Positions 1,295 through 28,979 of a stretch of DNA of 32,000 nucleotides are shown piece after piece. Under the pieces are notes generated by a model. It did no database searches, was not told the origin of the DNA, and saw only the letters and a list, made by a program, of their open reading frames with translations. Positions within the stretch are counted from its first letter, which is position 1. The number at the start of each line of letters is the position of its first letter. Origin of the DNA: Sinorhizobium meliloti (GTDB lineage Bacteria > Pseudomonadota > Alphaproteobacteria > Rhizobiales > Rhizobiaceae); contig NZ_JAGIOS010000002.1 in assembly GCF_017876815.1 (NCBI RefSeq), positions 1,380,001 through 1,412,000 of the forward strand, in the 5' to 3' direction. Position numbers and translations under genes: made by a program.

Positions 1295-2167
1295 TTATCT
1301 CACCCGGTGAGGTCCCGCCGGAAGCTCGGTGTTGCCTGAAATTGTGGGGGAGGCGTTGTCTACTGAGTAGTAGCCGTACCCCCCCATCGAAAGGTGGTTG
1401 TCGGTGATGGAAACGTTCGTAATCGGACCGCCATTAGCTCTGCCGTCTACGTAGATGTCATACCCGGGAGTTCCGCCCAGAAAATTGTTGGTTACATTGA
1501 CGTCATTAATTGCCCCAAAATCGTTCTTGATGAACACAGCCGACGTGTCGCGCGCGAGGATGGTATTACCCTCGATCAGAACGCCGTCCTGGCCACCCTG
1601 CACCGAAATGCCGTCATAGTGCGGATCGGAAGCGCTGTCTTCGAGATCGTGGATGTAGTTCCCCTTCACCGCGCTTGAACCGCCTGTCAACGTGATACCG
1701 TTCTCGACTTGGGAGATATCGTTGCGCAGGAAGGTCCCGCTGCCGAGGATAGCCGAGTTGCTGTCACCGGAGGAGCCTGGCCCTACGATATCGCTGTCCT
1801 GGATGGTGAAGTTGTTCGCGCCCTCGGCATCGACGCCCCAAGTCGAATCAAACGTGATCTCACTGTTTTTGATCACCACATCGTCAGCCATGACACGGAG
1901 GGGTCCGTTGATGATCATGCCATCGATCACGGTCCCGTTCTCTGTAATGGTCATCGGTCCGGTGTATTCTGTCAGAGTTGTGCCGGCCGGAACGCCCGTA
2001 TCCGTTGCATTAGGAAAGGTGCTTGCCATCGCTAGCATCCCTTTCTCCCCACCCGCGAGGAGTTGGGGTGATATAGCGTTTGTCCTGGGATCTACAACGC
2101 CAGCTAAATAAGTGAGCGCTACCAGGGTATTGACTAATACGGTCACTGGCGCCTTCCGAATCAACAA
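1295..2167 (-). CDS. Right-handed parallel beta-helix repeat protein, paralog B (pectate-lyase-fold; candidate polysaccharide depolymerase or modifying enzyme)
   Basis: 290-codon ORF with periodic beta-helix-type repeats (VIKNSEITF, FTIQDSDIVG, FLRNDISQVENGITL, VKGNYIHDL, VLIEGNTILA, VFIKNDFG, VNVTNNFLGG, VSITDNHLS). The start is ambiguous. TTG 2167 has no SD. GTG 2146 follows GGAAGG and gives a hydrophobic N-terminus, TVLVNTLVALTYLAGVV. ATG 2038 follows GGGGAGAAAGGG and gives no signal peptide. Confidence 0.75.
   Translation of the reverse strand: MLIRKAPVTVLVNTLVALTYLAGVVDPRTNAISPQLLAGGEKGMLAMASTFPNATDTGVPAGTTLTEYTGPMTITENGTVIDGMIINGPLRVMADDVVIKNSEITFDSTWGVDAEGANNFTIQDSDIVGPGSSGDSNSAILGSGTFLRNDISQVENGITLTGGSSAVKGNYIHDLEDSASDPHYDGISVQGGQDGVLIEGNTILARDTSAVFIKNDFGAINDVNVTNNFLGGTPGYDIYVDGRANGGPITNVSITDNHLSMGGYGYYSVDNASPTISGNTELPAGPHRVR
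1672..2015. repeat. Copy B of the 344-bp direct repeat
   Basis: See copy A. This copy lies inside the 1295..2167 coding region. Confidence 0.95.
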
Positions 2168-7241: not shown

Positions 7242-9452
7242 TCACTCGGCAGGATTTGCATCGGCGGTTTGGCTGTGGCCATACGACACACCATATGTGC
7301 CGCTCTCGACAGGAAAGATTGCGTACACGGCGCCCTTAATGGTCTCGGTCTTGTAGTCCACTGGCATTCCGCCGCGGGTGATCCCCGAAATCTCGATCCC
7401 TCCACTTCTTGCCGGGACCATTCCGCGAAGCATCTTTCCGGTTCTCGGGTCGGCGAAAGCGTCAAAGGTGAGGACGCTACCGCTCCAGGCGATATGCGCG
7501 AAATGGGAATTGTTGCGGCCGTCCGTCCAGTCAAGCAACTGCCGCGCCGAAACCAGGGGGACACCGCGGGCTTTTGCCGCAGCCGTCAACTGCCTGTCGA
7601 AATCGTCAGTGAAATCGTAATGGGTCCCGAATGCGCCATAGTAGCCTTCAGGCCCAAGCGCCCGGTCGAGTAGCGCCTCGATGGCCGACGGAAAGCTCAT
7701 TCCGCTCTCGTTCACCAGATGCGTGGGCAACTGGTAAACGTCAATCATAGTCCCATCAAGATCGGCAAAACGCATTGGCAGGCCGGACCCGGTCATGAAA
7801 CCGGGACGGTCCTTTATCCATGAGGGGGGCCAGTGGTAGTAGTTCAGGTCCATACGAACGCCGTACCGTGCCTCCACCTTCGGCGTGCCAGCCCATTCGC
7901 TCCACGGCAAGCAATGCGTGCGGCTTCCCGTCTGGGCAGGCAAGTCGCGATATTTGGCGCGGAAGTCGTGAAGCTCGCGGCTGAAGATCCCGGAAAATTC
8001 CGGCGGCTCGACATTTTTGCACCCGGTGTTGACGTGCACACCGATATCGAAGCCCGCTGCGGCATAGGCGCGGGCTTCCTCCGCCGTCAAACCGGACGTC
8101 GTGTACATCCAGGAGGTCGCGCGATAACATTCCCAGTCGACGAGTGAGCACCCCCTGGGCTCATTTGCCTTGAGCTCATCGAATGTTTTCCGGCTTCCCT
8201 TTCTGGTCCCATGATCGTCGCCCGTCATCACCAGAACCGCCTTGTGGCCTTTAGGGAAGTACCACAGTCTCGGCAGCGGCGCCTTGCCCTCAAGCATAAG
8301 GTTCATCAAGTTGACGAGCAGCCGCTGCTGCTCGTCAACCACCGGAATGGCGACTCGGTCAAGGTCATTCCAGTCGGGATGCTCATCACCCTTCTTGGCG
8401 CCAAAAAACAGATCAGTAGGCCGGATGACCGGACTTCCGTCACGCTCATCTCCGACCCAAGCGGGATTGCCCTGGCGCGTGTACACGATGGACCGGGCGA
8501 GATCATAGCTGAACGTCGCCGCTTGGCCTCCGGCTTCGCCAATCTGACGAAGCGTAATAGCCGGATAGAGCGTCGCGCTCGAAGCATCGCGGTAGAGTCG
8601 GGCGATCTCGGTCACACCTTCACTCCGCGTGTATAAATCCGCCGCGCCGTGGAACTGGATGGTCTTACTTGTGATGCCGCGCCCGGGATCCACCGCCGTG
8701 TCGATCAGTAGGTAACCGTCGTTCATTGATGCGCCGCGGTACTTCAGTCCCAGAAGCAGCGCCAGCTTCTTGTCGGGGCGCATGCTGATCAGATCGCCAC
8801 CTCTTTGGACCCAGCTCGAAAACATCGCCGCTTGTGCCTCGCTGAGCCGCATCTCACCCAGGATGGCGAGACTGAAGCGGTCGAGCAGTTGGTCGGTAAC
8901 CTGCGAAAGCTCGATGGACTCAAACGAGCCAATGCCTTCAGTTCGCAGAATCTCGCTGTAATATTTGGTGAAAGGCTGGCTCGCGGAGGCAATGATCAGT
9001 ATTTGGCCTCCGTAGCCTTGTTCAAGATCACGCCTCGTCGTGAATGACCAACGGCGGCTGAGCGTCAGAGGGTTGCCGGCGTTGTCGCGCGCGTCCACGG
9101 CAACGGCCGCCATATATTTGGTAGAGATCGCCAGTGGTATGGCGGGCGAAAGCACCACGGAGCGGTTCCGCTCGTCGTAAATGGCACTCGCCTCGACCGT
9201 TACGTTCGCCGCTGACAGCCAGAATGAATTTATCCTGACGCTAGCAGAATCTATTCCATCGCCAAAGGTCACCATGATTGCGGCATCGGGATCTACATCC
9301 CTGCTATCCGCCGAGGGGGCAACCCAGGAAACAACGGGGGGCGCATAATCCCCCGAGGGGAACCAAGCAAACATCGCACCTAAAATCGTCGCCCAGATCA
9401 GTACCAGGCCTTTGGACAATTTCTTGCCTCCCCAACTCGACAATGCCGGCAT
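7242..9452 (-). CDS. Membrane-anchored or exported multidomain protein: Ig-like (SbsA/Big_5-type) domain, central alpha/beta domain, C-terminal polysaccharide-deacetylase-like domain
   Basis: 736 aa. The N-terminal hydrophobic anchor is GLVLIWATILGAMFAWF. The Ig-like segment runs VVSWVAPSADSRDVDPDAAIMVTFGDGIDSAS...WSFTT. The C-terminal half has HKAVLVMTGDDHG (compare the CE4 TFDDG motif), GFDIGVHVNTG and RTHCLPWS. No other family was confidently recognised. Confidence 0.7.
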   Translation of the reverse strand: MPALSSWGGKKLSKGLVLIWATILGAMFAWFPSGDYAPPVVSWVAPSADSRDVDPDAAIMVTFGDGIDSASVRINSFWLSAANVTVEASAIYDERNRSVVLSPAIPLAISTKYMAAVAVDARDNAGNPLTLSRRWSFTTRRDLEQGYGGQILIIASASQPFTKYYSEILRTEGIGSFESIELSQVTDQLLDRFSLAILGEMRLSEAQAAMFSSWVQRGGDLISMRPDKKLALLLGLKYRGASMNDGYLLIDTAVDPGRGITSKTIQFHGAADLYTRSEGVTEIARLYRDASSATLYPAITLRQIGEAGGQAATFSYDLARSIVYTRQGNPAWVGDERDGSPVIRPTDLFFGAKKGDEHPDWNDLDRVAIPVVDEQQRLLVNLMNLMLEGKAPLPRLWYFPKGHKAVLVMTGDDHGTRKGSRKTFDELKANEPRGCSLVDWECYRATSWMYTTSGLTAEEARAYAAAGFDIGVHVNTGCKNVEPPEFSGIFSRELHDFRAKYRDLPAQTGSRTHCLPWSEWAGTPKVEARYGVRMDLNYYHWPPSWIKDRPGFMTGSGLPMRFADLDGTMIDVYQLPTHLVNESGMSFPSAIEALLDRALGPEGYYGAFGTHYDFTDDFDRQLTAAAKARGVPLVSARQLLDWTDGRNNSHFAHIAWSGSVLTFDAFADPRTGKMLRGMVPARSGGIEISGITRGGMPVDYKTETIKGAVYAIFPVESGTYGVSYGHSQTADANPAE

Positions 9453-23057: not shown

Positions 23058-23801
23058 ATGTGCTTGATGAGCAGGCGTGACTATGACAATGCGACGGTCG
23101 GGAGAGTCGCAGCCGCAAAAAATGAGCGGAGGCCCCGACGCGTCATTCTCATCATAAGCAAAACCGGCATAATTTCAGAGAGATTGATCAGTGCTCTCGA
23201 GCGGGAATTCTCTTGGGTGCTTGTCGAAGAGGTTGAGCAGGTTGCCGCGGCGTGCAATGTCTTTGCCCATCCTGTATCGCTCATCCTTGTCGACCCTGGG
23301 ATGATCGACGAAGCCGATGAAAGATACATCGAACTGCTGCGTTTGCACCCAGACGCGCTTGCGGCGGCGATCGAGCCTAATGACGAGAACCTAACTGCAT
23401 CGTTCCTCAAGCTCACCCGTTCGCCGTTGGTACACAGTGTCCTCCCGATGAATCTAAGGCTCGATACATGGTTGTCCGTCATCGGGTTGATGCTTTGCGG
23501 CGGCGACTATCTTCCGCCTGCGCTAATTCTTGACGCAAGAAGGAACGGTCATGCTCCCGGCGGCGGCGCCAAACTGCCTGGCGCACCGATCAACGGGACG
23601 GGTGTCTCGGAGCTGACGGCTCGGGAGCTGCAGATTCTCGAGATGGTTTCCCGCGGTCTGCAAAACAAGCTGATTGCCGCCGAATTCCGTTTATCCGAGC
23701 ACACAGTAAAGATTCATCTGCACAACATTATAACGAAGCTCGGCGCCCACAACAGAACGGAGGCAGTCGCAAGATTTCGCAGCTTGCAAGAACGCCTTTG
23801 A
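23058..23801 (+). CDS. LuxR/FixJ-type HTH regulator with an unorthodox receiver-like N-terminal domain (paralog 1)
   Basis: The C-terminal LuxR HTH is LTARELQILEMVSRGLQNKLIAAEFRLSEHTVKIHLHNIITKLGAHNRTEAV. The receiver-like domain has VILIISK (acidic pair absent) and LILVDPGM (Asp retained). An alternative start is ATG 23067. Confidence 0.85.
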   Translation: MCLMSRRDYDNATVGRVAAAKNERRPRRVILIISKTGIISERLISALEREFSWVLVEEVEQVAAACNVFAHPVSLILVDPGMIDEADERYIELLRLHPDALAAAIEPNDENLTASFLKLTRSPLVHSVLPMNLRLDTWLSVIGLMLCGGDYLPPALILDARRNGHAPGGGAKLPGAPINGTGVSELTARELQILEMVSRGLQNKLIAAEFRLSEHTVKIHLHNIITKLGAHNRTEAVARFRSLQERL

Positions 23802-24573: not shown

Positions 24574-25371
24574 ATGACGAAAGGGAGTTCGGCAATGGCT
24601 TCTTTTACACCGAAATTGGAGAACGAGCTGCCATTCGCGCAGGACCAGCACCGCGTAACCAACCCGTTACAGTCAGGCAAGGAAGCGGAACAGCAGCCAC
24701 TTGCAAAGAAGGACAAACGGTGTCTGCTCATCTTTGATGACAGGGCGCTAGGCCGCGAATGTCTGGCGAGGACTCTGGTCGATCACGGCCTCAGGATGGA
24801 AGTCGCTGCTTTCGGCTCGTTCGACGAATGGCAGGAGACAAAGGGCAGCTATCCCGACGTCGGAGCCGTCCTCGTCAATATCGGCGCGCGCAAAGTAGGG
24901 GATGTGACGGCAGACATTTCCAAGCTCGCCTCTCAGTTTAACCCCGCCCCCGTTGTCGTCCTCTCGGACAGCGATGACATCGCCCAGATCCTGCAGGTCC
25001 TCGAAAGCGGGGCACAGGGATATATTCCCGCATCTGTCGGCGTGGATGTGTGCATCGAAGCGATCGCCTTGGCGATGGCAGGCGGCGTCTTTGTGCCGGG
25101 AAGCAGTCTTCTGGCGGCGCGCCACCTGATCGAGGCAGAGAAGCGGGAGACTTCGCCGCTGGCGGGAATGTTCACACTCCGTCAAGCGGAGGTGGTCGAG
25201 GCGTTACGAAGAGGCAAGGCAAACAAGATCATCGGCTATGAACTCAATCTCCGCGAGAGCACGGTCAAGGTTCATGTTCGCAACATCATGAAGAAAATGA
25301 AGGCCACGAACCGGACGGAGGTCGCTTGCAAACTCAATGAGCTGTTTTCAGGCGATGCACGTGGCTCCTGA
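24574..25371 (+). CDS. LuxR/FixJ-type HTH regulator with a pseudo-receiver domain (paralog 2)
   Basis: The HTH is FTLRQAEVVEALRRGKANKIIGYELNLRESTVKVHVRNIMKKMKATNRTEV. The receiver-like domain has LLIFDD and then AVLVNIG, with Asn where the phospho-acceptor Asp is expected. An alternative start is ATG 24595, 7 nt after AAGGGAG. Confidence 0.85.
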   Translation: MTKGSSAMASFTPKLENELPFAQDQHRVTNPLQSGKEAEQQPLAKKDKRCLLIFDDRALGRECLARTLVDHGLRMEVAAFGSFDEWQETKGSYPDVGAVLVNIGARKVGDVTADISKLASQFNPAPVVVLSDSDDIAQILQVLESGAQGYIPASVGVDVCIEAIALAMAGGVFVPGSSLLAARHLIEAEKRETSPLAGMFTLRQAEVVEALRRGKANKIIGYELNLRESTVKVHVRNIMKKMKATNRTEVACKLNELFSGDARGS

Positions 25372-25797: not shown

Positions 25798-26586
25798 ATG
25801 AATTCAGTGGCTCTTTCTTACAACAATACGGCGCTTCATGCTTTGGGCGCATCCTCTCCCGATGAGGCGACCAATGGAGCCCGTGACAACACGGTAGCCG
25901 GTTCGGCGCTGCTCCTGTTGGACAATCGGACGCTCGACAGAGAATGCCTGGCCGAATGCCTCGTTTTGCACGGCCTCGGCATCGAGGTCCTAGCCTTCGG
26001 ATCGGTTGGCGAATGGCGGAAGAACAAGGATCTTCATCCGCCCGTCGCGGCAATCCTCTTGAACATCGGAGGCAGAAAAGTCACCGATCCCAGCAATGCC
26101 TCAGAAATAACCGATCTCGTGACGGAGTTTGGCCCCACGCCGGTCGTGGTCCTGTCTGATTTGGACGAACTGGCACAAATCCTAAAGGCATTGGAGTGCG
26201 GCGTCAGGGGCTATATTCCATCATCGATCGGCTTCGATATCTGCGTGCAAGCAGTCAACCTGGCGCGAGCCGGTGGGACATTCGTCCCTGCGAGCAGTAT
26301 CCTCTCCACTCGACAGATCACGGTGGCTGCTGGGGAGGTGCCTCGGCCGCTAGGGGGGATGTTTACTCAGAGGCAGGAAGAAGTCATCCGGGCGCTAAGG
26401 CGCGGCAAGGCAAACAAGATCATTGCCTATGAGCTCAATCTGCGTGAGAGCACCGTAAAGGTCCATATCCGCAATATCATGCAAAAGCTGAAGGCGACGA
26501 ACAGGACCGAGGTGGCTTACAAGCTTGGCGATATGTTCCCCGCCGAGATTGGAGAGTTGGAGAAACCAGGACTGCCTCAACCGTGA
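25798..26586 (+). CDS. LuxR/FixJ-type HTH regulator with a pseudo-receiver domain (paralog 3)
   Basis: The HTH is FTQRQEEVIRALRRGKANKIIAYELNLRESTVKVHIRNIMQKLKATNRTEV. The receiver-like domain has LLLLDN and then AILLNIG (Asn at the acceptor position). By eye it is about 60 percent identical to paralog 2 over the receiver-like domain and HTH. Confidence 0.85.
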   Translation: MNSVALSYNNTALHALGASSPDEATNGARDNTVAGSALLLLDNRTLDRECLAECLVLHGLGIEVLAFGSVGEWRKNKDLHPPVAAILLNIGGRKVTDPSNASEITDLVTEFGPTPVVVLSDLDELAQILKALECGVRGYIPSSIGFDICVQAVNLARAGGTFVPASSILSTRQITVAAGEVPRPLGGMFTQRQEEVIRALRRGKANKIIAYELNLRESTVKVHIRNIMQKLKATNRTEVAYKLGDMFPAEIGELEKPGLPQP

Positions 26587-26934: not shown

Positions 26935-27777
26935 TTAGCTCAAGAGATCGCCTGCGCGTGCCGCCACGCGCACATAGACGTCCTCCAGGGGTGAACGTGG
27001 CGCGACGAGTTGATGCGTTGCAAGTCGCAAAAGCGCGTTCAGATGCTCCCTGCCGCCATAGCCAACGGTTTTGGCGAAGGGCTTCATCGAAGTGTGCTCA
27101 CCGACGGGGTAAAGCTGCGCGTACTCCGCGCCGTTCGTGAACTCCTCATAATTGGAGCCCTCGACACGGAAAGTCTCGACCGGGACACCCTCTGCTAAGA
27201 CCGCTTCATGGGTCGCGAGCACGATCTGATAGTATTCGAGCACATCCGAGTCGCCGGGCAGCGCCGGGTCAATCGACGTTCCGTTAACGAGATCACTCGG
27301 CCTGATAAAAACGCCGTCGATGTACAGTGCGTGACCGGAGGAAAGATAGAGGTCTTTGCGGGGCGTTTGCTCGTCAAGGGCGAAACGGCGGATGCGGATT
27401 GGCACCACGCTCTCGCTCCACGTGGATGACGCACGCCGGTAGACGTGGCGACCTATCCATTTGACCGGCAGCAATTCGCCGCGGACCGTCTTGACGAGAT
27501 CGCCTATTCGGAGGTCTTCGATCGCCGTCTCGCCCTTGGACGTGAGGATTGCCGTGCCGCGTAGCAGGCACAGTGGGCCGCCTTTGCCAATGCCGTCGCG
27601 ACCACGGCCAAGGCCTAGATCAATACCCCGCTTTCCGGCCTCCTTGGCGGCCGCTGATGACGTCACGGTAGCGGAGAACGCGGCGAAGGCGGCTAGTCTG
27701 GCTCCCGCCGCGGCCGCCAAGCCGATGAAATGTCTTCGCGCCGTATTCGTGGGTGAGCTTCCTTGACCGTCGGGCAT
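26935..27777 (-). CDS. Tat-signal Hint-domain protein (Hedgehog/intein-like, Hint_2 type), function unknown
   Basis: 280 aa. The twin-arginine motif TARRHFIGLAAAAG is followed by a hydrophobic region and SSAAA. A Gly/Lys/Arg-rich linker follows. The Hint N-terminal block is CLLRGTAILTSKGETAIEDLRIGDLVKT, and later blocks are PVKWIGRH, PIRIRRFAL, LYLSSGHALYIDG, VLATHEAVLAEGVPVETF. AGGAG lies 9 nt upstream of the ATG. Confidence 0.8.
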   Translation of the reverse strand: MPDGQGSSPTNTARRHFIGLAAAAGARLAAFAAFSATVTSSAAAKEAGKRGIDLGLGRGRDGIGKGGPLCLLRGTAILTSKGETAIEDLRIGDLVKTVRGELLPVKWIGRHVYRRASSTWSESVVPIRIRRFALDEQTPRKDLYLSSGHALYIDGVFIRPSDLVNGTSIDPALPGDSDVLEYYQIVLATHEAVLAEGVPVETFRVEGSNYEEFTNGAEYAQLYPVGEHTSMKPFAKTVGYGGREHLNALLRLATHQLVAPRSPLEDVYVRVAARAGDLLS

Positions 27778-28229
27778 ATCTCCATGCTCCTAATTCGAGG
27801 CGTCCCTTCCCTGATGCTATTCTATGCTCCCGGCGCTCTTGGCGAGAATACGCCAATTCGGCAACCGCAGAGCCAAAAAGGAGGATGGATGGTACTTTTG
27901 GAGGAGCCAAGGTTTACGGTCGCCGGTCACTGCAGTAAAAAGTCCTATCGCGGCCTTTTCTGCTGTCTCGAGGTTTCGTCCATGCGAGCCGAGTCCGTGT
28001 CAATGCAGAGATCCGGTACTTTTATCCACATGACAGCAATGTCCAGTGGTGACGTTTTTCCGACATCGGCCGTCAAGAGCGATGGCGTTTGAGCACGATG
28101 CGCGACCGCTGTGGCCGTTCATGGTGGCTCCACTCTGATGGCGAAATCAAAGTGCGTTAGAAGTGCCGTCCGAGCGAGCAATCCTCTCTTTGCACCAGTG
28201 CGGGCTTTTTGAGCGGGAGATGGTGCACC

Positions 28230-28810
28230 CGAACACATGCGGTTTTTCGAGCGCTATTTCATGGTGGTCGGTGCTACGGAGCGCAACTCACAATCAAGGG
28301 CAAGCGACGCCCTCGTACATCAATGCATCGCCTTCGGCATGTATCCGGTCTCTGTACGCGCAGGGTACGGCTCCTGTGGCTCTCGCTCGAGAGAAGGCGG
28401 AAGCGATTGGGCAGCTTGTTCGGGGCGAGGATCCGCGCGCCGGTCGCGTTTCAATCACGCCGAAGACGTTCAAGGATTGCATGGATGGTCTTCTGAACTG
28501 CCTGCTTCCGCACTGGCGGGAAAGGCCCAAGACAGCCGACAGGCTGCGCTCGCCCATACGGTCAGTGATCGACGACGCAATCGCTCACGAATGGGACACG
28601 GCTGGCAATCCGGCTTGCTGGAAGGGCCGCTTGGAGAAAGTGATCCTACGCCGTCAGAAACTTCAGCGCGGGCATCACGCTGCGCTCGCGTATCCGTATG
28701 AAAGATATAGAAGGCCGCTCGATGGCCGCCTTCTATTGGGAACCGCGGACGTTCCACCTCGCGATGATCGCCGGGACTGCTCCGACTTTAATACCGCCAC
28801 CTCGGTTCGC
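28230..28810 (+). pseudogene. Degraded P4-type tyrosine integrase, N-terminal half (frameshifted)
   Basis: Pieces lie in three frames. IKGKRRP, FGMYPVSV and TAPVALAREKAEAIGQLVRGEDPRA match the DUF4102-type arm-binding region (GKRR...LG.YP.VSLA.AR..A...L...G.DP). TFKDCMDG...HWRERPKTADRLRSPIRSVIDDAIAHEWDTAGNPACWKGRLEKVILRRQKLQRGHHAALAY matches the SAM-like core-binding region (...NPA.W.G.L...L....K....HHAALPY). Confidence 0.6.
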
Positions 28811-28979
28811 GCTTGACGTTGTGAAGCAACTCGGAAGCCGTGGCGAAATCGCCGAAGAGGCTGGTCAAACGCTTCTCCTCCTCTTGGGGCAGGCGTTGTC
28901 GTCGGCAAAAAACGTGTATATTCCATACCTTAGAAGAAATTTTCTTGGAAAATTTGTCGGCTTCAACTCGTTCTACCAT
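28788..28979 (-). CDS. Hypothetical small protein (63 aa) in an AT-rich spacer
   Basis: ATG 28979 is preceded by GGGAGGAG with a 4-nt spacer. Local GC is lower than the surroundings. No family was recognised, and the ORF overlaps integrase-remnant sequence on the other strand. Confidence 0.25.
   Translation of the reverse strand: MVERVEADKFSKKISSKVWNIHVFCRRQRLPQEEEKRLTSLFGDFATASELLHNVKREPRWRY

What the first reader, a model, noticed from the sequence alone, without database searches (positions are those of the whole stretch)
26935..27777. Minimal Tat-exported Hint-domain protein whose only upstream cargo is a short Gly/Lys/Arg-rich peptide
The ORF has three parts. A twin-arginine signal (TARRHFIGLAAAAG...SSAAA) comes first. 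It is followed by about 25 residues, KEAGKRGIDLGLGRGRDGIGKGGPL. A Hint/intein-like module then begins with its nucleophilic Cys (CLLRGTAILTSKGETAIEDLRIGDLV...). In Hedgehog proteins and bacterial intein-like domains, that Cys makes a thioester at the preceding peptide bond and releases or transfers the N-terminal polypeptide. Here that polypeptide would be only a short basic, Gly-rich peptide delivered to the periplasm. That makes a processed or ligated peptide product plausible, for example one attached to an envelope or polysaccharide acceptor. Tat export would imply the domain folds before transport. No partner gene is evident. The gene sits alone between the regulator trio and an integrase scar, next to a surface-polysaccharide locus. 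Hint_2-type proteins are common in alphaproteobacteria, but to my knowledge they have no assigned function.
Basis: partly seen in the sequence, partly recalled or inferred. Interest (0 to 1): 0.7.

Follow-up and report, generated by a model that had tools for sequence, protein, structure and literature searches.

The report
Tat-exported minimal Hint-domain protein family
This is a real gene on a Sinorhizobium meliloti megaplasmid for an exported, probably self-cleaving intein-like (Hint) protein that carries almost no cargo; it belongs to a large, unstudied family in rhizobia, and what its self-cleavage achieves is unknown.

Summary
The ORF at 26935-27777 (minus strand, 280 aa) has a twin-arginine signal and a 25-residue Gly/Lys/Arg-rich spacer. 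A Pfam Hint_2 domain (E 3.5e-35) follows, starting at Cys70, the protein's only cysteine.

- The protein belongs to a family of at least 478 genomic copies in Hyphomicrobiales. All inspected copies share this architecture.
- The "cargo" peptide is the least conserved part. It is 10-94 residues long, low-complexity, and not always basic.
- A 76-residue helical C-terminal tail is conserved together with the Hint domain.

Cys70, the block B Ser/Thr-x-x-His motif and the block F His are invariant in 103 homologues. The intein C-terminal His-Asn is replaced by Glu-Thr/Ser, so only N-terminal (Hedgehog-like) chemistry is possible.

No neighbouring gene or gene function is conserved. The adjacent polysaccharide locus is therefore probably incidental. 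Ten distant Hint_2 proteins that I sampled carry 125-730 residue N-terminal regions and no RR signal.

Best reading: a Tat-exported Hint_2 protein, probably of the B-type bacterial intein-like kind, that cuts off a disposable spacer. The selected unit is Hint plus tail. A Hedgehog-like peptide-adduct reaction is not excluded. No cleavage or export step was demonstrated here.

The parts
26935..27777 (-). Whole ORF, 280 codons plus stop: a Hint domain-containing protein.
   Evidence: ORF list. Same CDS annotated in CP140944.1. dN/dS 0.24-0.30 against orthologues.
27787..27791 (-). AGGAG Shine-Dalgarno-like motif, 9 nt upstream of the ATG.
   Evidence: Read directly from the sequence. This is a consensus match only.
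27646..27777 (-). Predicted twin-arginine signal peptide, residues 1-44. It has an n-region, the RR motif, an Ala-rich h-region, and an A-A-A signal-peptidase-like site at residues 42-44.
   Evidence: Hydropathy and A-x-A statistics. A family profile aligns with the NosZ Tat signal. Family members give weak hits to PF10399 (18 of 103) and PF10518 (7 of 103). AlphaFold helix at 15-32 with low confidence.
27721..27741 (-). Twin-arginine motif A-R-R-H-F-I-G, residues 13-19.
   Evidence: Across 103 homologues: R14 in 101, R15 in 102, H16 in 101, F17 in 97.
27571..27645 (-). Low-complexity Gly/Lys/Arg-rich spacer (the N-extein), residues 45-69, KEAGKRGIDLGLGRGRDGIGKGGPL.
   Evidence: pLDDT below 50. 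Hypervariable in length and sequence across the family. dN is 3-5 times that of Hint plus tail.
27568..27570 (-). Codon of Cys70: the only Cys in the protein and the predicted N-S acyl-shift nucleophile (intein block A, position 1).
   Evidence: Present in 103 of 103 sequences. Aligns with Cys1 of the PI-SceI intein and with the mutated Cys1 of the C. thermocellum BIL structure 2lwy. Corresponds to Pfam model position 2.
27166..27570 (-). Hint_2 domain, residues 70-204.
   Evidence: Pfam PF13403, E 3.5e-35. AlphaFold pLDDT 93-98. Foldseek matches BIL2 6tmm, inteins, BIL 2lwy and Vint 8r2c, with E from 1e-6 to 3e-4.
27331..27342 (-). Block B motif S146-S-G-H149 (the intein T-x-x-H equivalent).
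   Evidence: Position 146 is S in 96 and T in 7 sequences. H149 is present in 103 of 103.
27172..27177 (-). E201-T202. By motif spacing these sit where inteins have their C-terminal His-Asn.
   Evidence: E201 in 102 of 103. Position 202 is T in 71 and S in 32. The next residue is F, L, C or Y. The mapping to intein blocks F and G is by eye against the intein consensus, which I recalled from memory.
26938..27165 (-). Conserved, mostly helical C-terminal tail, residues 205-280.
   Evidence: N215 and A235 are invariant. E211, F213, E218, L222, Y223 and R274 are kept in at least 93% of sequences, and H245 in 89%. Predicted helices at 209-212, 216-222, 242-254 and 263-279, with pLDDT 94 falling to 58 then rising to 77. 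A tail-only search finds it only behind Hint_2 domains of this family. Its first helix motif is recognisable in distant Hint_2 proteins.

Best explanation
The gene encodes a member of a large Hyphomicrobiales family of small exported Hint_2 proteins, probably of the B-type bacterial intein-like kind.

Proposed course of events; only the sequence features were shown here, and every step is inferred:
1. The precursor folds in the cytoplasm and is exported by the Tat pathway through its invariant RR-H-F motif.
2. Signal peptidase I probably cuts after Ala44.
3. In the periplasm, Cys70 attacks the Leu69-Cys70 peptide bond (an N-S acyl shift), assisted by the block B Ser/Thr-x-x-His motif.
4. The resulting thioester is resolved by water or another nucleophile. 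This separates the disordered 25-residue spacer from the Hint-plus-tail module.

The intein C-terminal His-Asn is replaced by Glu-Thr/Ser, so neither splicing nor Asn-driven C-terminal cleavage can occur. The chemistry is N-side only, as in Hedgehog.

The unit under selection is the Hint domain together with its conserved helical tail. The Gly-rich segment behaves as a disposable spacer or propeptide, not as a sequence-specific cargo. The biological role of the mature module remains unknown.
For: Domain and fold:
- Hint_2 match at 122 bits.
- Confident AlphaFold Hint fold.
- Best structural matches are BIL and intein structures.

Catalytic residues:
- Invariant in 103 homologues: C70, H149 and H190. 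S/T146 is also kept in all.
- C70 is the only Cys in the window protein.
- C70 aligns with intein and BIL Cys1.
- Position 201-202 is E-[TS] instead of H-N.

Tat signal:
- RRHF is kept in at least 97 of 103 sequences.
- A strict A-x-A site occurs in 64 of 82 sequences.
- Sub-threshold hits to two Tat-signal models, and an alignment to the NosZ Tat signal.

Spacer as disposable element:
- pLDDT below 50.
- Length 10-94 residues, about 32% Gly, 6% hydrophobic residues.
- Net charge from -8 to +8.
- dN of 0.38 against 0.07-0.12 for Hint and tail.

Tail co-conserved with Hint:
-.
- A search of 1.84 billion representatives found it nowhere else.

Gene context:
- Stand-alone gene. No neighbour cluster occurs in more than 8 of 83 loci.
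- No Pfam family occurs in more than 6 of 121 or 6 of 146 flanking proteins.

Chemistry precedent:
- B-type BIL domains are reported to cleave their N- or C-termini and to lack the intein C-terminal motif (review PMC7765530).
Against: - No cleavage, export or localisation was observed. Every step is inferred from sequence.
- The curated Tat-signal models (PF10518, TIGR01409) do not hit the window protein itself.
- Tat exports folded proteins. A Hint domain that is active in the cytoplasm would cut itself off its own signal peptide before export. Cleavage must therefore be slow or conditional, and nothing here shows how.
- If signal peptidase already frees the protein, it is unclear why selection keeps an autoprocessing site intact merely to discard a spacer. 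That argues the reaction product or the thioester matters in some way this model does not name.
- That Pfam Hint_2 equals the 'B-type BIL' of Amitai et al. 2003 rests on my memory of that paper, which is not in the held library.
Confidence: 0.6

Rival explanations
1. Hedgehog-like or BUBL-like peptide transfer. The spacer peptide is the product. The thioester at its C-terminus is attacked by a specific nucleophile, such as a lipid, a sugar or an amine of peptidoglycan or a protein. The conserved tail recruits that nucleophile, acting like the Hedgehog sterol/adduct-recognition region. The result is a C-terminally modified or anchored cationic Gly-rich peptide. This is essentially the first reader's idea.
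For: - The layout (signal, N-terminal piece, Hint, then a roughly 75-residue conserved helical tail) parallels the Hog domain, which is Hint plus SRR/ARR (PMC2362128).
- The C-terminal Asn is absent, as in Hog.
- The best structural match, Tetrahymena BIL2, transfers its N-terminal flank onto lysine amines without ATP (PMC8616854).
- About half of the family's peptides begin with a G-x-x-W-W-K-like motif, and 71% carry a net charge of at least +2.
- The catalytic residues are kept even though signal peptidase could already release the protein.
Against: - The peptide is hypervariable in length, sequence and even charge sign.
- The window protein and its closest relatives lack the W-W motif.
- No transferase, transporter, immunity or acceptor-pathway gene is conserved nearby.
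- The tail has no detectable homology to any Pfam family.
- The Hog-type Hint model PF01079 is hit weakly by only 4 of 103 members.
Confidence: 0.17
2. Non-processing Hint module. The Hint fold is used as a structural or binding domain in the periplasm. The protein stays intact after signal peptide removal, and the Gly-rich segment is only a flexible tether.
For: - The spacer looks like a generic disordered linker.
- Export as a folded protein by Tat is easiest to reconcile with an uncleaved junction.
- No product or partner is evident.
Against: - Exactly the residues needed for the N-S acyl shift are invariant in 103 sequences that are otherwise 41-77% identical to the window protein. These are Cys70 at domain position 1, S/T-x-x-H, and the block F His.
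- They also persist in Hint_2 proteins only about 30% identical.
Confidence: 0.13
3. Self-release from a signal anchor, or Ntn-type activation. In the first version, the Tat signal is not removed and anchors the precursor in the inner membrane as in Rieske proteins; Hint cleavage is then the release step. In the second version, cleavage exposes Cys70 as a new N-terminal residue that is itself the functional group of the mature Hint-plus-tail protein.
For: - 18 of 103 family members weakly match the Rieske Tat-signal model PF10399, best E 3.5e-4.
- 22% lack a strict A-x-A site.
- The conservation pattern (variable propeptide, conserved mature part) is what a propeptide model predicts.
Against: - 78% have a canonical A-x-A site at the expected distance.
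- The h-region is only moderately hydrophobic and contains a conserved Arg.
- I know of no precedent for a catalytic role of a processed Hint domain.
Confidence: 0.08
4. Polymorphic-toxin-type cassette. The Hint domain releases the C-terminal 76 residues as a small toxin or effector, as proposed for pretoxin-HINT domains.
For: The Hint domain is followed by a short C-terminal module. BIL domains occur in MafB and CdiA-type toxins (papers listed).
Against: - The tail is conserved, not polymorphic.
- No conserved downstream immunity-like gene exists.
- PT-HINT PF07591 is hit by only 3 of 103 members, at E of 0.11 or worse.
- There is no C-terminal Asn for C-side cleavage.
- No PADLOC hit.
Confidence: 0.02

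Closest known systems
B-type bacterial intein-like (BIL) domains / Pfam Hint_2 proteins of Rhodobacterales and Acetobacteraceae (Amitai et al. 2003 and Dassa et al. 2004, as reviewed in PMC7765530)
   Same: - Same Pfam family.
- Cys at domain position 1, block B His and block F His are conserved.
- No intein-type C-terminal His-Asn.
- The N-terminal flank is hypervariable.
- The Hint domain lies near the C-terminus and is followed by a short tail whose first helix motif is shared.
   Different: Ten sampled distant members carry N-terminal regions of 125-730 residues with no RR signal or obvious signal peptide. Here the N-terminal region is reduced to a Tat signal plus a 10-94 residue low-complexity spacer. 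The distal two-thirds of the tail is family-specific.
Hedgehog/Hog autoprocessing domain (Hint plus sterol/adduct recognition region), including 'Hog only' and 'Short-hog' nematode proteins (PMC2362128)
   Same: - The precursor carries a signal peptide.
- An N-terminal piece is followed by a Hint domain that starts with Cys.
- A further conserved region of about 70 residues follows.
- There is no C-terminal Asn, so chemistry is N-side thioester only.
- Variants with little or no N-terminal domain exist.
   Different: - Not homologous at family level: PF01079 is hit weakly by only 4 of 103 members.
- Export is by bacterial Tat, not through the ER.
- No evidence of a sterol or any other adduct.
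- The tail shows no detectable similarity to the SRR.
Tetrahymena thermophila BUBL BIL2 domain (PDB 6tmm/6y75)
   Same: It is the best structural match to the predicted Hint domain, E 1e-6. It is a Hint domain whose thioester passes its N-terminal flank to an amine (PMC8616854).
   Different: - Sequence identity is 12-14%.
- BIL2 keeps the C-terminal Asn (mutated N143A in the crystal).
- BIL2 is flanked by ubiquitin-like domains.
- BIL2 is eukaryotic and cytosolic.
A-type BIL domain of Clostridium thermocellum (PDB 2lwy)
   Same: Block A aligns, and it is the top hit of the family-profile search of PDB sequences, E 0.022. The structure also matches, E 1.3e-4. Both occur in secreted bacterial proteins.
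   Different: A-type domains keep the His-Asn C-terminus and can splice or cleave at the C-side (PMC7765530). This family cannot.

Membership tests
Pfam Hint_2 (PF13403) | Score above the curated gathering threshold over most of the model. | tested here: met
   122 bits against a cut-off of 28.4, model positions 2-144 of 147. All 103 aligned homologues also match.
Pfam Hint_2 (PF13403) | Hint (Hedgehog/intein) fold. | tested here: met
   AlphaFold pLDDT 93-98 over residues 70 to about 230. Foldseek gives 24 PDB matches at E of 1e-3 or better, all BIL, intein or Vint domains. This rests on a predicted structure, not a solved one.
B-type bacterial intein-like domain | Intein blocks A, B and F are present: Cys1, T/S-x-x-H, and the block F His. 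| tested here: met
   C70, H149 and H190 are invariant. Position 146 is S or T in 103 of 103 sequences. C70 aligns to intein and BIL Cys1.
B-type bacterial intein-like domain | Lacks the intein C-terminal His-Asn motif and a nucleophilic +1 residue (PMC7765530). | tested here: met
   E201-[T/S]202 followed by F, L, C or Y. The positional mapping to block G is by motif spacing against the intein consensus, recalled from memory.
B-type bacterial intein-like domain | Sits in a hypervariable region of a non-conserved, usually extracellular, protein. | tested here: met
   The N-terminal flank is hypervariable and evolves faster, including at silent sites. An export signal is present. However, the rest of the protein is conserved.
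B-type bacterial intein-like domain | Autocatalytic cleavage at the N- or C-terminus of the domain. | not testable with these tools
   Requires expression of wild type and C70A, then immunoblot or mass spectrometry.
B-type bacterial intein-like domain | Identity of Pfam Hint_2 with the B-type BIL sequences of Amitai et al. 2003 (Rhodobacter sphaeroides and R. capsulatus). | not tested
   The primary papers are not in the held library. The equivalence rests on my memory plus the shared Rhodobacterales distribution.
Tat (twin-arginine) substrate | Consensus S/T-R-R-x-F-L-K at the boundary of the n- and h-regions. | tested here: met
   A-R-R-H-F-I-G. Across 103 homologues: R14 in 101, R15 in 102, H16 in 101, F17 in 97. 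The Lys of the consensus is replaced by Gly.
Tat (twin-arginine) substrate | Recognition by curated Tat-signal profiles (Pfam PF10518, NCBIfam TIGR01409). | tested here: inconclusive
   No hit for the window protein at E up to 1. In the family, 7 of 103 hit PF10518 (best E 0.016) and 18 of 103 hit the Rieske Tat-signal model PF10399 (best E 3.5e-4). All are below the curated thresholds. The family profile aligns to the NosZ Tat signal at E 0.75.
Tat (twin-arginine) substrate | Weakly hydrophobic h-region followed by a signal peptidase I site. | tested here: met
   Mean hydropathy about 1.3 over residues 16-42. A strict A-x-A site lies 22-38 residues after the RR in 64 of 82 sequences.
Tat (twin-arginine) substrate | Export depends on TatABC and on the RR pair. 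| not testable with these tools
   Needs a tatC mutant or RR-to-KK variants. TatP and SignalP are not available here.
Hedgehog Hog domain | Match to the Hog-type Hint model (PF01079) and an SRR/ARR homologous region. | tested here: not met
   PF01079 is hit by 4 of 103 members, at E of 0.009 or worse, and not by the window protein. The tail matches no Pfam family. The resemblance is architectural only.
Intein | C-terminal Asn (or Gln/Asp), a nucleophilic +1 residue, and insertion in a conserved host protein. | tested here: not met
   E-T/S followed by F or L. The flanks are a signal peptide with a low-complexity spacer and a family-specific tail, not a host protein.
Polymorphic toxin pretoxin-HINT cassette | PT-HINT domain, a variable C-terminal toxin, and an adjacent immunity gene. 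| tested here: not met
   PF07591 is hit by 3 of 103 members, at E of 0.11 or worse. The tail is conserved. No downstream gene is conserved.

The most novel reading that the evidence does not exclude
The family could be a bacterial counterpart of Hedgehog autoprocessing. Hint plus a tail acting as an adduct-recognition region would work in the periplasm. Together they would turn a genetically encoded, fast-evolving, mostly cationic Gly-rich peptide into a C-terminally esterified or amidated conjugate. The acceptor could be a lipid, a glycan, peptidoglycan or a protein amine. Alternatively the peptide could be cyclised through its own free N-terminus. Either way it would be a ribosomal peptide-modification route that needs no separate enzyme and no ATP.
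Probability: 0.15. Interest if true: 0.85.

Novelty: new variant of a known kind. Interest (0 to 1): 0.45.

Why it matters
Hint domains are known as devices that cut or transfer the polypeptide in front of them: inteins, Hedgehog and bacterial intein-like domains all work this way. In this family almost nothing sits in front of the domain. The family is nevertheless large, under purifying selection, often present in several copies per genome, and keeps every residue needed for the first catalytic step. So either a very short, rapidly changing peptide is a useful product, or the Hint-plus-tail module has a role of its own after self-cleavage. Neither has been described.

The pairing with a Tat signal adds a second question: how does a self-cleaving domain that folds before export avoid cutting off its own address label? 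The family occurs in well-studied rhizobia (Sinorhizobium, Rhizobium, Mesorhizobium) and in Brucella/Ochrobactrum. The experiments are therefore simple, and the answer could reveal new periplasmic protein chemistry. The protein may equally prove to be a minor envelope component of little consequence.

Tried and rejected
Conserved gene partner:
- I clustered 1277 ORFs from 83 loci. I then ran Pfam censuses of 121 genes at position ±1 and 146 genes at positions ±2 and ±3.
- Nothing recurs in more than 8 loci or 6 proteins. Polysaccharide functions are not among the top 25 families.
- The polysaccharide-acceptor context was therefore dropped. Three of the first four loci I looked at did carry such genes within 6 kb, which is a warning against small samples.

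Tail in other contexts:
- A phmmer search with residues 204-280 against 1.84 billion representatives gave 38 hits.
- All belong to this family, are fragments, or are two spurious repeat proteins.

Sequence comparison with solved structures:
- The single sequence gave no hits.
- The family profile gave only block A and Tat-signal matches.

Residue mapping to an intein by hhalign:
The result was meaningless and was discarded.

Other library scans:
- NCBIfam, PADLOC and PHROGs gave nothing useful.

Wider Hint_2 architectures:
- A profile search returned only the same family.
- I sampled plasmid-borne relatives by tblastn instead.

Local sequence features:
- The promoter/terminator and tRNA scans found nothing. 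The tandem-repeat scan found one weak 9-nt array at 27671-27693 in the signal-peptide region and none in the spacer.

Literature:
- No paper on this family, or on a Tat plus Hint combination, was found.
- One query was wasted on the unrelated human HINT2 gene.
- The primary BIL papers are not held.

Lipoprotein reading:
- Rejected. The residue before Cys70 is M, N, K or L rather than G, A or S, and Cys70 lies about 25 residues beyond the signal peptidase site.
Full report

The window carries a 280-codon ORF at 26935..27777 on the minus strand with an ATG start. An AGGAG motif lies 9 nt upstream of the start (sequence). The open frame begins only four codons before this ATG (L001), so no alternative upstream start exists. 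Any downstream start would remove a segment that is conserved at the protein level.

The window is 99.4% identical to a pSymB-type megaplasmid of Sinorhizobium meliloti. There the same 843-nt CDS is annotated 'Hint domain-containing protein'.

- A-R-R-H-F-I-G at residues 13-19, followed by an Ala-rich stretch and AAA at residues 42-44.
- The 25 residues KEAGKRGIDLGLGRGRDGIGKGGPL.
- A Pfam Hint_2 match covering residues 70-204, at 122 bits against a cut-off of 28.4.

The surroundings are also as described. On one side lie an rfbABCD/polysaccharide export locus and three GerE/LuxR-type regulators. On the other lie an integrase fragment and an AsmA-family gene.

**2. The family**

A protein search returned 173 clusters, nearly all 260-305 residues long and covering 94-100% of the query. 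A scan of one genome per species found at least 478 encoded relatives. Almost all of the 80 loci kept are from Hyphomicrobiales:
- Sinorhizobium/Ensifer, Rhizobium, Pararhizobium and Phyllobacterium;
- Mesorhizobium, Brucella/Ochrobactrum and Microvirga.

Several genomes carry two or three copies. In an alignment of 103 members, identity to the window protein is 41-77%.

The gene is under purifying selection. dN/dS is 0.24-0.30 against orthologues that differ by 4-20%.

**3. Anatomy and conservation**

Signal:
- R14, R15, H16 and F17 are present in 101, 102, 101 and 97 of 103 sequences.
- The following stretch is moderately hydrophobic, with a mean of about 1.3 on the Kyte-Doolittle scale. A strict A-x-A site lies at the expected distance in 64 of 82 sequences.
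- The curated Tat-signal models do not hit the window protein.
- Within the family, 18 of 103 members weakly match the Rieske Tat-signal model and 7 of 103 match PF10518.
- The family profile aligns with the Tat signal of nitrous-oxide reductase.
- I read this as a Tat signal that is very probably genuine but unproven.

Spacer:
- After the predicted peptidase site comes a segment of 10-94 residues, median 22.
- It is about 32% Gly, rich in Pro, Lys, Asn and Arg, and only 6% hydrophobic.
- It is often visibly repetitive, for example GNGNGN, KDKPKDKGPKDK and KVKVKV.
- Net charge ranges from -8 to +8, median +3, and 18% of copies are not positive.
- About half begin with a G-x-x-W-W-K-like motif. 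The window protein and its nearest relatives lack it.
- AlphaFold gives it pLDDT below 50.

Hint domain:
- C70 is invariant and is the only Cys in the window protein.
- Position 146 is Ser or Thr in every sequence, and H149 is invariant. This is the intein block B T-x-x-H motif.
- H190, A195 and G197 form a block F-like Y-x-I-x-L-x-x-H-E-x-x-L-A-E-G motif.
- In the profile search of PDB sequences, C70 aligns with Cys1 of the PI-SceI intein. It also aligns with the mutated Cys1 of the Clostridium thermocellum BIL structure.
- The predicted structure is very confident, with pLDDT 93-98.
- Its best PDB matches are all Hint domains. They include Tetrahymena BIL2, several inteins, the C. thermocellum BIL and a Vint domain.
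- Five residues after the A-E-G motif, where inteins have His-Asn followed by a nucleophile, this family has Glu-Thr/Ser followed by Phe or Leu. That positional mapping uses the intein consensus from memory.
- Asn cyclisation, and hence splicing or canonical C-terminal cleavage, is therefore not available.

Tail:
- Residues 205-280 are conserved with the Hint domain. N215 and A235 are invariant. E211, F213, E218, L222, Y223 and R274 are kept in at least 93% of sequences, and H245 in 89%.
- The tail is predicted to be mostly helical. Confidence is high for roughly residues 205-240 and lower beyond.
- A search with the tail alone over 1.84 billion representative proteins found it only behind Hint_2 domains of this family.
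- Its first helix motif (F-x-N-x-x-E-Y/F-x-x-L-Y-P) is recognisable in distant Hint_2 proteins, for example AFDNYQEYLDLYG in Antarctobacter.

**4. Context**

No partner gene is conserved:
- Clustering 1277 neighbouring ORFs from 83 loci gave no cluster present near the Hint gene in more than 8 loci.
- Among the 121 immediately flanking proteins, no Pfam family occurs more than 6 times.
- Among 146 proteins at positions ±2 and ±3, again none occurs more than 6 times.
- Polysaccharide families are not prominent in either census.

The neighbouring polysaccharide locus in this window is therefore most likely incidental. The region is accessory DNA, with GC of 54-58% against about 62% further on.

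**5. How this differs from other Hint_2 proteins**

A tblastn search of plasmids found 214 records. They are mainly from Sinorhizobium, Acetobacter, Paracoccus, Phaeobacter and other Rhodobacterales. I read ten distant members. They have 125-730 residues in front of the Cys, no RR motif and no obvious signal peptide. The Hint_2 domain lies near the C-terminus and is followed by a tail.

The usual Hint_2 protein therefore carries a substantial N-terminal passenger. The family studied here has replaced that passenger with an export signal and a spacer.

**6. Mechanism**

Shown here: the sequence features, their conservation, the predicted fold, and the absence of conserved neighbours.

Known from the literature: bacterial intein-like domains cleave at their ends. 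The B type shares all intein motifs except the C-terminal one (PMC7765530). BIL domains lack the +1 nucleophile and give mainly cleavage products (PMC7664689).

Inferred:
- Tat export of the folded precursor.
- Signal peptidase cleavage after Ala44.
- An N-S acyl shift at Leu69-Cys70.
- Resolution of the thioester, which frees the spacer and leaves Hint plus tail with an N-terminal Cys.

Selection acts on Hint plus tail and barely constrains the spacer. dN is 0.38 for the spacer against 0.07-0.12 for Hint and tail. I therefore take the spacer to be a disposable substrate or propeptide, not a bioactive cargo.

Two points remain unexplained:
- Why does a folded Hint domain not cut itself from its signal peptide before export?
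- Why is the catalytic apparatus kept if signal peptidase can already release the protein?

Both suggest that the thioester or its product matters. This keeps the Hedgehog-like reading alive. The layout of Hint plus a conserved helical extension of about 75 residues mirrors Hog, which is Hint plus a sterol/adduct recognition region (PMC2362128). The closest structural match, BIL2, transfers its N-terminal flank onto lysine amines (PMC8616854).

**7. Comparison and novelty**

The protein is a member of Pfam Hint_2. With one caveat, that the equivalence of Hint_2 and B-type BIL rests on my memory, it is a B-type BIL domain protein. It is not an intein, not a Hog-family member and not a pretoxin-HINT cassette (membership table).

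The conserved architecture (Tat signal, minimal low-complexity N-extein, family-specific tail) appears in no paper I could find. I rate it a new variant of a known kind.

Interest is moderate. The finding is well supported as an observation and poses a clear, testable puzzle. Nothing here shows unusual chemistry, and the ordinary outcome, a self-trimming periplasmic protein of unknown role, is the most likely one.

Noticed in passing
window 27571-27777 (codons 1-69 of the Hint gene), compared with L091 and L005: Between S. meliloti and S. medicae or a Sinorhizobium MAG, synonymous divergence of the signal-plus-spacer part is 0.9-1.9. For Hint plus tail it is 0.36-0.52. blastn aligns S. medicae only over codons of about 64-277. 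The 5' module may have a separate, recombinant history, or the low-complexity alignment may inflate the figure.
   Followed up: partly
window 23058-23801, 24574-25371, 25798-26586 (+ strand): Three tandem GerE/LuxR-type regulators of 247-265 residues. Only the middle one gives even a weak, sub-threshold receiver-domain hit. RefSeq calls all three response regulators. They look like paralogues with degenerate receiver domains.
   Followed up: no
window 28163-28816 (+ strand): An integrase remnant. Only part of the Phage_int_M central domain matches, just below the cut-off. There is no tRNA gene anywhere in the window. GC is 54-58% from about 22 to 29 kb and 62-63% beyond 30 kb. This is consistent with an old island boundary next to the Hint gene.
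   Followed up: partly
P0154 (345 aa) and P0145 (359 aa): Both are family members with the same Tat signal, Hint and tail but longer N-exteins. P0154 has about 85 residues containing two D-x-D-x-D-G-like motifs (DRDGDGTID and DKDRNGIVD), reminiscent of calcium-binding loops. P0145 has a Gly/Asn-rich stretch of about 90 residues.
   Followed up: no
L086, L087, L088, L096 (Phaeobacter, Paracoccus, Antarctobacter, Ruegeria Hint_2 genes): Distant Hint_2 proteins without signal peptides often start with a similar N-terminus: M-P-T-Y-S-L, M-A-T-Y-S-L, M-P-T-T-Y-T-F or M-A-N-Y-S-Y. This might be a shared targeting or structural motif of their passenger regions.
   Followed up: no
loci flanking family members (alignment A3): RTX calcium-binding repeat proteins are among the most frequent immediate neighbours of the Hint genes, 6 of 121. 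In Acetobacter oryzoeni a 1077-residue Hint_2 protein follows an autotransporter heptosyltransferase gene. In Aliiroseovarius a Hint_2 protein of more than 1400 residues precedes an SpvB/TcaC-type gene.
   Followed up: no
S. meliloti pSymB-type records: Each S. meliloti replicon that carries this gene has a second matching place. Other S. meliloti strains have only a copy that is about 69% identical at the DNA level. So at least two paralogous lineages exist in the species, and the one in this window is strain-variable.
   Followed up: no
window 7242-9452 (-) and 1295-2167 (-): Inside the polysaccharide locus lie a 736-residue protein with an N-terminal Big_5 Ig-like domain and a 290-residue right-handed beta-helix protein. 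They could be a surface protein and a glycan-modifying or depolymerase-like enzyme.
   Followed up: no
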